A stretch of 64,000 nt of DNA from the NCBI RefSeq assembly GCF_006345805.1, contig NC_043006.1, positions 32,860,001 to 32,924,000 of the forward strand, written 5' to 3'. This document shows, in pieces, positions 21,760 through 57,914 of the stretch (positions within the stretch are counted from its first letter, which is position 1; every line of letters starts with the position of its first letter). This stretch comes from Octopus sinensis (lineage: Eukaryota). The position numbers were made by a program, and so were the translations under genes. The notes under the pieces were generated by a model. That model searched no databases. It was not told the DNA's origin and worked only from the letters and a program-made list of their open reading frames with translations.

Positions 21760-22020
21760 ACAGTTATACAGTTAATACACAATTACTATTTATATAGTAG
21801 ATTGTCTAGTAGGCTATCAAAATAGTCCTCTTAAGTATTAATAGCTAAGAAGGTCTTTCTCTCTCCCTCTCTCCCTCTCTCCCGTTCACTTTTGCCGAAC
21901 CACTAGCTTACGGGGACGTAAACACACGAGCATCGGTTGTCAGGCGATGTTGGCGGAAAAACACATACACACAAACACACACACACACACACAATACACA
22001 CACAACACACACACACACAC

Positions 22021-22076
<56 letters not shown>

Positions 22077-22174
22077 TAGTAATAGCGTGACAACAAAAGA
22101 AAGAATGGGAGCTCGATATTATGTAAATAGAGGAATATCTCTGTAAAATAAGATGTGACAATTATTCGGTTGTT

Positions 22175-22240
22175 ATAATAAAACTCCGAGTTTCAGATGT
22201 CGGTGCGGAAGTCTGCTCCGGCATCTCGTCAGTTATTAAG
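22175..22240 (-). ncRNA. Hammerhead-like motif (left arm, minus strand; GUU cleavage triplet)
   Basis: Reverse complement reads taataa-CTGACGA-gatgccggagcagacttccgcaccgacatct-GAA-ACTC g GAGT-T-ttatta. Helix III is a short palindrome, as in minimal or dimeric PLE hammerheads. Confidence 0.6.
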
Positions 22241-22333
22241 ACAAAGCAAAAATGTTATGAAAATGACCGTTAAACAAAGGCAAGGAACGTCTTAGTAATT
22301 TCCCGGTCATTTTCATAGCATTTTCGTTTTTTT

Positions 22334-22398
22334 CTTAATAACTGACGAGATGCCGGAGCAGATTTCCGCTCCAACATCCGAAACGCGGAGTGTTATTA
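22334..22398 (+). ncRNA. Hammerhead-like motif (right arm; position 17 is G, likely inactive)
   Basis: taataa-CTGACGA(22342-22348)-GATG cc GGAGC agatttcc GCTCC aa CATC c-GAAAC(22380-22384)-gcgga-GTG-ttatta; helix I taataa/ttatta. Confidence 0.55.
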
Positions 22399-22849
22399 TG
22401 GCAACCGAATAATTGTCACATCTTATTTTATAGATATATATATATATATATTGCCTATAGATAATATATATTTGAATGGGATTTCAAATTTTATCTTTGA
22501 TCAAAACAAGTAGAAATATTACTCCTAGTACCTCGTTCTATGCATTTGTGTTGATAATAACGTCCTTCCGGTTCCCCAAGGATCTAGATAGTGGTGATAT
22601 ACAGTACTTGTTTCTATTTGTGAACGCAGTCACACGTTGTGCAAATCATCGTATTAGGATATTCCCTGTTAGTCCAAAGTAACATTTTAGCGCATCGAGT
22701 CCTGAAATATCAGCTCTTTCTACCAGCTACTTCTTCAAGCATTTGCTTCTTGGAATTCAGTGGCCAAGGGATCTTCAGGTACTTAAAGGTTGTGGTGTAG
22801 TTACATTAGTATAGTTATTCTGGCTACATACTTGAAAACCTATGTCGAG

Positions 22850-56660: not shown

Positions 56661-56694
56661 GTATGTATCTATCTATAATATATATATATATATT

Positions 56695-56855
56695 GATAAA
56701 AAAGGTAAGACAACAAAAGAAAGAAAGAGACCTCGATATTATGTAAATAGATGAATTTATCTGTAAATGTAATATGGGACAATTATTCGACAGCTATGAT
56801 AAAACTCCGAGTTTTATCATGGCTACCGAATAATTGTCCCATATTACATTTACAG
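56695..56855. mobile_element. Collapsed copy of the 22085-22433 family; hairpin 56761-56855 centred on ACTCCGAGT
   Basis: Similar left extension and arm sequence to 22090-22191, then folds back at 56808; follows a (TA)n tract. Confidence 0.8.
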
Positions 56856-57914
56856 TTGTAAATGTGTGTATATATTGGTGTGTGTGTGTACGTATATATG
56901 TTTGCATACACATATGCATTAATACCTATATACATACATACATAAATGCACACAGACGTCCAGATTCAACATGCACAAATACTAACGCATACACACACAC
57001 ACACACACAGGCATGCACATACATATTGTTGATAATAGGGGATCCATGGAGGATCGAGGCATATCGAAGTGAAGCTCGCCACCGTTACTGGCTTAACAGA
57101 ATAACCTAGAACAGTTAAGTAATGCATTATCATAGCACGGAATGTATTAGTGAAAGAATGTCCTCCCTTGTTAAGTAATCCATAGATCCAATATCATGGA
57201 ATAGGATCCAACGATGATTGAATTCTTAAGCATAATAAAAACGGACGAATGGATTATCTGGTATTGCGACAATTGTTTCCATAAGAATCTTTATTTTGAT
57301 GTGAGATATGTCGTATGCATAGCATCCATAAGATTACAGAAAATGTGTTGTGTATGTGCGTGCTACGTACATGATTGTACTATGCTCACGTCATAATAAA
57401 GACTCTGTCGCCATGGGCGCTGTTTGGTTGTTGTGTCGTGGTGGAATTGGTGAATGAAAATATTTTATTTGGCAGTAACTTAAAGCAATAACTTAAACAC
57501 TACCTACGAACGGTTAACTGGATCATTTATTGCCGCTCATAAAGACAATCTACGTTGGCCATTTACAATTAACAACAGCAATAGTTAGGGAGATTGGGAG
57601 AGAACTACTATTCTGATATTACAAGAAGCTATCTGTACGGCAACATGTGGTCGGCCCAGCATAGCTAAAACTAACTGCATTATCTTCGTGGCGGCAGAGG
57701 TCCTTCGACATATGCCCTAGGTCGTCTGTTTTAGCCGTTTACTTTATATATGGAATCATCAGAGTGAGAACAAAAGAAGCCCATGTCGCTGAACTGCTTT
57801 CAATATTCTGCCTGGCAAGAGGTGAGACGTGTGAATAAATCTCAACGCTCTGCAAGGAGATTACGTGCCAAAACGACTTTTTTTTATACGGTAAAAAAAA
57901 CATTCTAGAAAACG

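What the first reader, a model, noticed from the sequence alone, without database searches (positions are those of the whole stretch)
56695..56855. Sister copy has collapsed exactly at hammerhead helix III
Seen: 56709-56812 follows 22090-22191 up to ACTCCGAGT and then turns straight into the right arm, so both catalytic cores and the spacer are missing. Inference: helix III is itself palindromic, so its two inverted copies act as direct repeats. Slippage, template switching or RT fold-back there would delete the interior. Having the full and collapsed forms in one window makes the breakpoint directly visible.
Basis: partly seen in the sequence, partly recalled or inferred. Interest (0 to 1): 0.72.

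Follow-up and report, generated by a model that had tools for sequence, protein, structure and literature searches.

The report
Retroelement fold-back joined at ribozyme palindrome
This short DNA hairpin is one of at least 43 places in this genome where a small non-coding jumping element is folded back at exactly the same 13-letter palindrome of its hammerhead-like motif; the junction was likely made when each copy was pasted in, in the known Penelope-like way, and not by collapse of the full copy nearby.

Summary
Window 56761-56807 and 56809-56855 are 47-nt inverted arms meeting at C56808, the centre of ACTCCGAGT. The left part follows 22090-22191 in 88 of 104 aligned columns.

The "sister that collapsed" reading does not hold. 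The two copies belong to different subfamilies (full = A, short = B). The short copy's nearest relatives are other short hairpins on other chromosomes, up to 93% identical.

The exact junction ATAAAACTCSGAGTTTTAT occurs at 43 sites in the 2.7-Gb genome, against 0 for the reversed control. It occurs in subfamilies A and B and in two B tail variants. The centre base is C in 20 and G in 12 of the 32 copies that could be oriented. So it formed repeatedly, at least five times.

The family is a roughly 0.7-kb non-coding element with a hammerhead-like motif. It has a 3' tail of about 65 nt and sits in AT-rich microsatellites. Copies are often head-to-head with a one-sided tail and a fixed outer end, which is the published Penelope-like insertion pattern.

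In 100 unselected insertions, fold-back points are not uniform. They cluster around the ribozyme motif. Helix III is the sharpest single site but a minority (about 0.5-1% of insertions).

Earlier notes of this scan already read similar hairpins elsewhere in this genome as Penelope-like stubs. This is ordinary in kind, with a new detail.

The parts
56693..56760 (-). One-sided 'tail' of the short (subfamily B) copy, i.e. the 3' end of the element read on the - strand (TTGATAAAAAAGGTAAGACAAC...GAATTTAT). It abuts (AT)n on its left.
   Evidence: The same tail is found, on one arm only, in 32 of the 43 helix-III copies.
56761..56807 (-). Long arm of the short copy (element sense on the - strand), continuous with the tail.
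   Evidence: inverted repeat I1; matches monomer positions 211-335 in antisense.
56804..56812 (.). Apex: ACTCCGAGT with centre C56808. It lies inside the 19-nt junction word ATAAAACTCCGAGTTTTAT (56799-56817).
   Evidence: One search lists this site as C10:32916799-32916817, one of 43.
56809..56855 (+). Short arm (element sense on the + strand). It ends at ..CATTTACAG, about +47 from the centre, and is followed by TTGTAAAT and GT/AT simple repeats. It has no tail.
22073..22283 (-). Full (subfamily A) copy: tail plus long arm, element sense on the - strand. It holds the hammerhead-like motif at 22232-22190 and helix III ACTCCGAGT at 22183-22191.
22284..22303 (.). Spacer at the apex of the full copy, about 82-96 nt upstream of helix III in element coordinates.
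22304..22445 (+). Full copy: inverted arm without tail. It carries the motif CTGACGAG..GAAAC at 22342-22384 and a degraded helix III, ACGCGGAGT, at 22383-22391. The next base, the predicted cleavage-site base 17, is G. The arm ends at ..TTTTATAGATA and runs into (AT)n.

Best explanation
The hairpin at 56693-56855 is a head-to-head copy of a non-coding retroelement with a hammerhead-like motif, and its two arms meet at the centre of the palindrome AAACTC-S-GAGTTT. This junction was likely formed at insertion, when two minus-strand cDNAs, primed from the two cut strands of an AT-rich target in the Penelope-like manner, would anneal to each other through that palindrome.

Shown:
- The anatomy: tail on one arm only, a fixed outer end of the other arm, and microsatellite flanks.
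- The junction recurs at 43 sites, in several sublineages and with both centre bases.
- 5' ends of arms cluster around the 3' half of the ribozyme motif.
- Genes for reverse transcriptase plus GIY-YIG endonuclease are abundant in the genome.

Inferred:
- One cDNA starts at the tail end and the other at an internal start about 50 nt downstream of helix III. These would be the two start sites described for a lizard Penelope-like element.
- Reverse transcription often stops between the cleavage site and the base of the GC-rich helix II, which leaves the palindrome at or near the cDNA 3' end.
- Two such identical ends pair over 12 of 13 positions, with a C-C mismatch at the centre. Repair or replication then fixes C or G.

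The hammerhead motif matters here as a source of a conserved palindrome and of a stable hairpin, not through its catalysis.
For: 1. Architecture. All hairpin copies read have the tail on one arm only. The other arm ends near ..ACAGATA (about +50) next to (AT)n or (AC)n.
2. Published pattern (passages read). An inverted 5'-truncated copy, an optional tail on one side, AT-rich simple targets and palindromes at the inverted junction are described in PMC3846280. Both target strands being cut and extended, two internal RT start sites, and the tail being the stretch between them are described in PMC11167929.
3. Recurrence. There are 43 exact junction sites against 0 in the control.
4. Independent origins. 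41 are subfamily B and 2 subfamily A (L047, L049). Both B tail variants are represented. The centre is C in 20 and G in 12 of the 32 oriented copies, and both bases occur in each B variant. The share of A among junction sites (2 of 43) is in line with the share of A among unselected insertions (8 of 100 by best reference).
5. Ends accumulate there even without a fold-back. In 100 unselected insertions, 21 long arms end between -15 and +7 of the helix III centre, a span of 23 nt. The other 65 ends that fall inside the 271 nt mapped are spread over the remaining 248 nt. Seven of those 21 (L100, L123, L126, L132, L141, L173, L178) run straight into non-element DNA or simple repeats.
6. The palindrome is top-ranked in the 3' 230 nt of the element: a 6-bp stem with a 1-nt spacer, tied in stem length only with a 3-nt-loop palindrome at -104 in that one copy.
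7. Among the 43 copies the inverted arm never runs past about +50 into the tail. This fits a second start site rather than copy-back along the first cDNA.
8. Enzymes. 147 of 150 scored GIY-YIG candidates match, out of 5029 first-look candidates, with open frames up to 883 aa. One frame carries RVT_1 plus GIY-YIG.
Against: 1. No autonomous element with this family's 3' end was found. The 8 GIY-YIG loci compared show no similarity to it.
2. The tail is about 65 nt, longer than the 30-40 bp described in print.
3. The same end product, and both centre bases, would also arise from slippage between the two helix III copies of a full hairpin. Nothing here separates the two timings.
4. Nine of the 43 copies have an inverted arm of only 9 nt, which needs a second priming site other than +50 or a later loss.
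5. Helix III takes only about 0.5-1% of insertions: 8 of 1684 tail words lie in exact junction copies, and 1 degenerate case was seen in 100 (L164). Of 14 symmetric fold-backs in the sample, 7 lie at -50 to -80 and only 1 at helix III.
6. Rfam does not recognise the motif.
7. Target-site duplications cannot be read inside microsatellites.
Confidence: 0.55

Rival explanations
1. Deletion after (or apart from) insertion. Each helix-III copy began as a full hairpin. Because helix III is palindromic, its two inverted copies are 12-of-13 direct repeats that lie opposite each other in the extruded hairpin. Replication slippage between them would remove the interior.
For: In family-typical copies the two helix III copies read AAACTCCGAGTTT and AAACTCGGAGTTT. 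Crossing over left or right of the centre would give G or C, which matches the mixed centres. Substrates are plentiful: 56 of 100 insertions have an adjacent inverted arm. An asymmetric junction, GAGTTT|CCAC, with TTTC shared on both sides, recurs in L075, L144 and L169 and could equally be a microhomology deletion.
Against: No locus was seen in both states. Plain 5'-truncated copies with no inverted arm also pile up at this spot (7 cases), and deletion inside a hairpin cannot produce those. The window's own full and short copies are of different subfamilies, so they are not a before-and-after pair.
Confidence: 0.2
2. Amplified subfamily. After a few founding events the short hairpin with its tail became a template itself. 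It keeps the tail and the internal start region, so most of the 43 would be copies of short-hairpin masters.
For: 41 of 43 are subfamily B. Many are nearly identical in architecture: 50-nt arms, the same tail, and 85-93% identity to the window copy for the best 14. The short form retains everything downstream of helix III.
Against: Both centre bases occur in each B tail variant, and the form also occurs in A. At least five founders are therefore needed, assuming a master passes its centre base on unchanged. Gapless arm lengths run from 9 to 50 nt. The share of A among helix-III copies matches its share among all insertions, as expected if every lineage makes them at the same low rate. No private shared substitutions were noticed, but no tree was built.
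Confidence: 0.2
3. Assembly artefact: a longer palindrome was collapsed by the assembler at this locus.
For: Palindromes are hard to assemble, and the reads laid here could not span the apex.
Against: The same junction sits at 43 places with different flanks on 24 large contigs and 5 small ones. Contigs of two other runs match 56826-56990 and 56828-56990 without a difference, running from inside the right arm into the flank (table 8).
Confidence: 0.03

Closest known systems
Insertions of endonuclease-bearing Penelope-like elements with an adjacent inverted, 5'-truncated repeat and a one-sided 'tail' (Arkhipova et al. 2013, PMC3846280; Frangieh et al. 2024, PMC11167929; passages read)
   Same: Head-to-head arms, a tail on one arm only, a fixed outer end of the other arm, insertion into AT-rich simple repeats, a palindrome at the inverted junction, and a hammerhead motif in the repeated part.
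   Different: This is a non-coding element of about 0.7 kb, and no matching autonomous partner was found. The tail is about 65 nt rather than 30-40 bp. The junction recurs at one nucleotide inside the hammerhead's helix III. I did not find that stated in the passages read, nor in the listings of two full-text searches.
Minimal or dimeric type-I hammerheads of metazoan Penelope-like elements (Cervera and de la Pena 2014, PMC4209133; passages read)
   Same: CUGANGA and GAAA boxes, a long helix II with a bulged base, and a small palindromic helix III that would pair between two RNAs.
   Different: Activity is untested. Rfam models do not match it. A transcript through either window hairpin would fold as a plain long hairpin in the energy model (-199 and -66 kcal/mol on the + strand).
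Metazoan non-LTR retrozymes (Cervera and de la Pena 2020, PMC7229834; bioRxiv 10.64898/2026.07.22.740005; search listing and abstracts only, and for the preprint a term search that found none of my terms in its text)
   Same: Non-coding, hammerhead-bearing, presumably mobilised in trans.
   Different: Retrozymes are tandem arrays with one ribozyme per unit and yield circular RNA. Here copies are dispersed single units or head-to-head pairs. The two direct pairs seen (L085, L086) are separated by microsatellite.
Twin priming and 5' inversion of LINE-1 (recalled, no paper read here)
   Same: Both target strands would prime cDNA, and the two cDNAs would be joined by microhomology.
   Different: Twin priming inverts a different segment of one RNA. 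Here both arms copy the same segment, so an inverted duplication results.

Membership tests
Hammerhead ribozyme, type I, Penelope-type (minimal or dimeric) | Conserved boxes CUGANGA and GAAA in the right order and spacing | tested here: met
   CTGACGAG..(helix II)..CGAAAC is on both arms of the full copy. CTGAAGAG..CGAAAC is in subfamily B. Both boxes are absent from the short window copy.
Hammerhead ribozyme, type I, Penelope-type (minimal or dimeric) | Helices I and II can form, with compensatory changes between lineages | tested here: inconclusive
   Read by eye. In helix I the fifth pair is A-U in A and G-C in B. One helix II pair is C-G in A and U-A in B. That is only two lineages, and no statistics were run. 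Energy folding does not return the hammerhead fold.
Hammerhead ribozyme, type I, Penelope-type (minimal or dimeric) | Short palindromic helix III followed by a cleavable triplet (GUH) | tested here: met
   The sequence ACTCGGAGT followed by T gives GUU. In the right arm of the window's full copy the base after GAGT is G, which would not be cleavable (the rule itself is recalled).
Hammerhead ribozyme, type I, Penelope-type (minimal or dimeric) | Match to a curated covariance model | tested here: not met
   No hammerhead family matched at gathering score on the window or at E<=10 on 22050-22480.
Hammerhead ribozyme, type I, Penelope-type (minimal or dimeric) | Self-cleavage | not testable with these tools
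   One indirect hint only: 6 of 100 long arms end at +5 to +7, the predicted cut site.
Penelope-like (EN+) insertion, or a non-autonomous rider on it | Adjacent inverted, 5'-truncated copy (head-to-head) | tested here: met
   Both window copies show it. So do 12 of the 40 places scored (the query's own place among them), 12 -/+ pairs, and 56 of 100 unselected insertions.
Penelope-like (EN+) insertion, or a non-autonomous rider on it | Optional short extension ('tail') on one arm only; the other arm ends at a fixed inner site | tested here: met
   The tail is about 65 nt, and the other arm ends at about +47 to +53.
Penelope-like (EN+) insertion, or a non-autonomous rider on it | Targets in AT-rich simple sequence | tested here: met
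   (AT)n or related microsatellites flank nearly all copies read.
Penelope-like (EN+) insertion, or a non-autonomous rider on it | An autonomous element (RT plus GIY-YIG) sharing the terminal sequence | tested here: not met
   RT plus GIY-YIG frames are abundant. The 8 loci compared share nothing with this family. Eight of 5029 candidates is a small sample.
Penelope-like (EN+) insertion, or a non-autonomous rider on it | Short target-site duplication | not testable with these tools
   The flanks are microsatellites.
Metazoan retrozyme | Tandem head-to-tail units, each with a hammerhead, able to give a circular RNA | tested here: not met
   Linear copies are single units of about 0.55-0.75 kb. 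No array was seen in 100 unselected loci.
MITE or foldback DNA transposon | Terminal inverted repeats of fixed extent with both ends equivalent | tested here: not met
   Apex and arm lengths vary from copy to copy, one end carries a tail, and most family members are not inverted at all.

The most novel reading that the evidence does not exclude
The conserved core of the hammerhead (GAAAC, helix III, GUUU) doubles as the annealing site for the two cDNAs of a Penelope-type insertion. The ribozyme motif would then dictate, to the nucleotide, where the element is folded back. The mixed C/G centre base would be the fossil of a mismatched cDNA-cDNA heteroduplex. That would be natural evidence that head-to-head Penelope structures arise by pairing of two minus-strand cDNAs rather than by self-priming of one strand. 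The pile-up of 5' ends at the predicted cut site would add the first genomic trace that such hammerheads cut their RNA in vivo.
Probability: 0.3. Interest if true: 0.55.

Novelty: new member of a known kind. Interest (0 to 1): 0.35.

Why it matters
How Penelope-like elements make their odd inverted structures is still open. Self-priming on an antisense template has been proposed (PMC3846280). Two-strand cutting with two RT start sites has been shown in vitro (PMC11167929). This genome holds well over a thousand insertions of one short non-coding rider, so junctions can be read to the nucleotide.

A junction that recurs at one palindrome, in several lineages and with both centre bases, is a countable natural read-out of the joining step. 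It also shows a practical point for genome scans: paired hammerhead motifs in long palindromes, and short hairpins without any ribozyme core, can be by-products of one insertion mechanism rather than designed double ribozymes or decayed ones.

Tried and rejected
- Rfam at gathering score and at E<=10 gave no hammerhead. The E<=10 hits are miRNA and sRNA models matching the long hairpin, far below their cut-offs, and were discarded.
- Energy folding and co-folding of the motif did not return the hammerhead fold or a clean helix III dimer. This says nothing either way for minimal hammerheads.
- Laying contigs and reads of four runs on 56690-56990 was swamped by thousands of family copies. No record spans the apex at this locus, so the assembly question and the state in the other species label stay open.
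- The first mapping of the 100-locus sample, with the subfamily A reference alone, produced false arm ends at ref 397, where A and B diverge. It was redone with a B reference.
- The lenient BLAST scoring ran inverted arms on into AT repeats, giving apparent ends at +72 or +132. Outer ends were taken from the sequences themselves.
- Looking for the autonomous partner among 8 GIY-YIG loci found none.
- Our-findings look-up by sequence found nothing.
- A viroid-like or rod-shaped RNA copied into DNA was considered for the full hairpin. It was dropped because most family members are linear 0.7-kb units and the hairpins differ in apex.
- Simple snap-back self-priming of a single cDNA was considered. 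By my reasoning it predicts centre C only and arms that could run into the tail, and neither is seen.

Full report
**What is in the window**

The stretch 56693-56855 consists of four parts:
- a 68-nt unpaired left part (56693-56760);
- a 47-nt arm (56761-56807);
- one central base (C56808);
- the reverse complement of that arm (56809-56855, 94% complementary).

The centre lies in ACTCCGAGT (56804-56812).

The copy at 22073-22445 has the same left part. Its arms are much longer (22124-22245/22329-22450 at 87% complementary, and inner arms at 84%). They carry CTGACGAG...GAAAC on both strands, at 22342-22384 on + and 22232-22190 on -.

The two copies agree in 88 of 104 aligned columns from 22090/56709 up to and including ACTCCGAGT. 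After that the short one turns back on itself. Only these two copies of the family lie in the window.

**What the family is**

The window is C10:32860001-32924000 of a 2.7-Gb genome. I searched that genome with the full hairpin.
- The first look found 3331 candidates, of which 40 were scored.
- 28 of the 40 match only query positions 4-199. These are single-arm linear copies.
- 12 of the 40, the query's own place among them, are hairpins.

Read in the sense of the hammerhead-like motif, a linear copy has these features:
- about 0.55-0.75 kb of non-coding sequence with a GT/GC-rich low-complexity 5' part;
- a duplicated TTTAACGGTCATTTT..GTCTTAATAA module;
- the motif CTGANGAG, then a roughly 30-nt GC-rich hairpin, then CGAAAC, then ACTCGGAGT, then TTTTAT..;
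- a 3' end ...TTCTTTTGTTGTC.TACCATT..T.AAT that abuts (AT)n or a similar microsatellite.

Two subfamilies are easy to tell apart.
- Subfamily A has GGTTGCCATAAT.., helix II ATGCCGGAGCAGATTTCCGCCCCGACATC, and tail ..TTAATAGTAATGGTATGAC.
- Subfamily B has GGTAGCCATGAT.., helix II ATGGCGGCGTGGATTTCCACCTCGGCATC, and tail ..TTGATAAAAATGGTAAGAC.

The window's full copy is A and its short copy is B.

**Is it a hammerhead?**

The boxes, a long helix II with one bulged base, a helix I, a 9-nt palindromic helix III and a GUU triplet are all there. Between A and B, one helix I pair and one helix II pair differ on both sides and stay paired. I read that by eye.

This matches the published description of Penelope-type hammerheads: a long helix II with a bulge, and a small palindromic helix III that is active only as a dimer (PMC4209133, passages).

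Against it, Rfam finds nothing and energy folding prefers other folds. I therefore call it a hammerhead-like motif. Cutting is untested.

**The hairpins follow the Penelope-like insertion pattern**

In every hairpin copy I read:
- one arm runs on into the tail of about 65 nt;
- the other arm stops near ..ACAGATA, about 50 nt downstream of helix III;
- both outer ends touch AT-rich simple repeats.

This matches the published picture.
- Arkhipova et al. 2013 describe an adjacent inverted repeat, an optional tail on one of the inverted repeats, a preference for simple AT-rich targets, and palindromes at the inverted junction (PMC3846280, passages).
- Frangieh et al. 2024 show that a purified Penelope-like protein cuts and extends both target strands. 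Reverse transcription starts at two internal sites of the RNA, and the tail is the stretch between them (PMC11167929, passages).

The genome is rich in such enzymes.
- 147 of 150 scored GIY-YIG candidates match, out of 5029 first-look candidates, with open frames up to 883 aa.
- One frame tested has RVT_1 plus GIY-YIG.
- None of the 8 loci compared shares sequence with this family, so the partner is unidentified.

Earlier notes of this scan reached the same Penelope-like reading for other hairpins of this genome. I used them as a lead to the two papers and checked the anatomy myself.

**The helix-III form is recurrent, not a local accident**

The junction word ATAAAACTCSGAGTTTTAT occurs at 43 sites. 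The reversed word occurs 0 times. I read all 43.
- 41 are subfamily B and 2 are subfamily A (L047, L049).
- Within B, both tail variants occur (GAAAGAAAG and GAATGAA).
- 32 could be oriented by their tail. In those, the centre base is C in 20 and G in 12, and both bases occur in each B variant.
- Two pairs (L056/L070 and L071/L072) have identical flanks and are probably duplicate contigs. Removing them gives 19 C and 11 G.
- The gapless inverted arm is 43-50 nt in 15 copies, 9 nt in 9, and in between in the rest. It never enters the tail.
- A few are compound: L038, L052 and L064 switch strand at helix III and then continue with other pieces. L066 is probably an antisense copy with an internal deletion.

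The window copy is 93% identical over 151 nt to L032 and 90-91% identical to L031, L039, L045 and L048. It is only 85% identical to the full copy 34 kb away.

If a master passed its centre base on unchanged, A with G, two B variants with C and two with G require at least five separate origins.

**Where do fold-backs fall in general?**

For an unselected sample I used a 31-nt word from the tail side, which both subfamilies share.
- It has 844 + 840 matches.
- I fetched the first 100, all on C1.
- I mapped each against an A and a B reference, in coordinates relative to the helix III centre. Upstream is negative, and the predicted cut lies between +5 and +6.

The 5' ends of the tail-bearing arm fall as follows:

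| Interval | Ends |
|---|---|
| +20..+40 | 8 |
| +8..+19 | 3 |
| +5..+7 | 6 |
| -8..+4 | 7 |
| -15..-9 | 8 |
| -38..-16 | 11 |
| -49..-39 | 0 |
| -80..-50 | 28 |
| -230..-81 | 15 |
| beyond -231 (linear) | 14 |

So 21 of 100 ends lie in the 23 nt from the cut site to the base of helix II. A second cluster lies just upstream of the motif.

Other results from this sample:
- 56 of 100 have an inverted arm next to the long arm.
- In 14 of those the two arms start within 6 nt of each other. Their apex positions are 0 (L164, a degenerate helix-III copy), -24 (helix II loop), about -31, seven between -50 and -78, then -89, -157, -236 and -242.
- The rest are asymmetric, often with a few shared bases at the joint. 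One example is GAGTTT|CCAC, with TTTC shared, seen three times (L075, L144, L169).
- The 12 close -/+ pairs in the first 100 matches of a B-specific word show the same spread, with spacings of 35 to 314 nt.

Thus apex positions are not uniform. They are also not concentrated at helix III.
- Exact helix-III copies account for 8 of the 1684 tail words.
- One degenerate case appeared in the sample of 100.
- Per single nucleotide this is still the most used site I saw. The seven symmetric apexes of the -50..-80 cluster are spread over about 30 nt, whereas helix III is one position.

**Mechanism**

AAACTC-S-GAGTTT has a 6-bp stem and a 1-nt spacer. That makes it the top-ranked short-spacer palindrome in the 3' 230 nt of a B copy. 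It consists of conserved hammerhead positions: GAAA, C15.2, helix III and the GUU triplet.

Just upstream of it sits the GC-rich helix II hairpin. A reverse transcriptase coming from the 3' end would plausibly pause there, and the -15..-9 cluster fits that. A cDNA that stops there carries the palindrome at its 3' end.

Two such cDNAs, one from each cut target strand, are identical in sequence. They can pair with each other only at a palindrome, and here they would pair over 12 of 13 positions with a C-C mismatch. Filling and ligation would give the perfect hairpin. Repair or replication of the mismatch would give C or G.

This accounts for five features:
- the nucleotide precision;
- the recurrence in all lineages at similar low rates (A is 2 of 43 among junctions and 8 of 100 among insertions);
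- both centre bases;
- the one-sided tail;
- the arm that never passes about +50.

The steps from "pauses" onward are inference.

**Alternatives**

A single cDNA snapping back on itself would, by my reasoning, keep C at the centre and could copy back into the tail. Neither is seen.

Slippage between the two helix III copies of a full hairpin gives the same product and both centre bases, so it cannot be excluded. I rank it lower because plain truncations without any inverted arm also accumulate at this spot (7 cases).

Some amplification of short hairpins as templates is possible on top of repeated formation.

An assembly artefact is very unlikely given 43 sites, although reads could not be used to check this one locus.

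**Verdict**

The thing is real. It belongs to a known kind of structure, the Penelope-like head-to-head insertion, here of a non-coding hammerhead-bearing rider.

The idea that the helix III palindrome is a preferred turning point does hold, as one hot spot among several. I did not find this link between the ribozyme's helix III and the inversion junction in the passages I read, nor in the listings of two full-text searches. Supplements were not opened.

Noticed in passing
L179 969-1042 (- strand of the locus; G000:C1:157581230-157582410), also in the overlapping locus L180: In one insertion the tail-bearing arm stops about 14 nt downstream of helix III. In the place of the inverted arm stands a complete tRNA-Gln(CTG) sequence in the inverted-arm orientation (ARAGORN). 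The second cDNA may have been made on a tRNA instead of the element RNA.
   Followed up: partly
L098, L100, L122, L123, L178, L186: Six of 100 unselected insertions have their tail-bearing arm ending at +5 to +7, exactly the predicted hammerhead cut site (..CCATGATAA). This could be a trace of in vivo self-cleavage. It may also be only part of the broader pile-up of ends between +7 and -15.
   Followed up: partly
L075, L144, L169: The same asymmetric joint, GAGTTT|CCAC.., occurs in three separate insertions. The long arm ends just past helix III and the inverted arm starts in the helix II loop. TTTC is shared by both sides, which points to microhomology joining.
   Followed up: partly
Element positions +40 to +53; in the window about 56755-56768 and its mirror 56848-56855: The fixed outer end of the tail-less arm lies in a small stem-loop, ATTTACAGATAAAT (5-bp stem, 4-nt loop). 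PMC11167929 reports RT start sites in a stem-loop of its lizard element (passage).
   Followed up: no
L195 2621-2680 (+): Beside a GIY-YIG match lies another hammerhead-like motif, CTGATGAG...GAAACTCGAGTTT, with a perfect 12-nt palindrome at helix III. Other element families of this genome may share the feature.
   Followed up: no
L056/L070 and L071/L072 (C14 vs C9321; C10833 vs C11487): These pairs of helix-III copies have the same flanks. They are probably duplicate or haplotype contigs, so site counts are slightly inflated.
   Followed up: partly
L085, L086 (G000:C1:37388940-37389755; 52810443-52811033): Each locus holds two direct copies of the 3' part of the element, 394 and 169 nt apart and separated by microsatellite. 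The copies are near-identical to each other. This suggests local duplication of an insertion together with its simple repeat.
   Followed up: no
window 21900-21960: A different GC-richer sequence (..ACGGGGACGTAAACACACGAGCATCGGTTGTCAGGCGATGTTGG..) runs into the (CA)n/(AT)n tract left of the full hairpin. By eye it resembles a stretch in front of a microsatellite in L021. It may be the end of another repeat family that seeds microsatellites.
   Followed up: no
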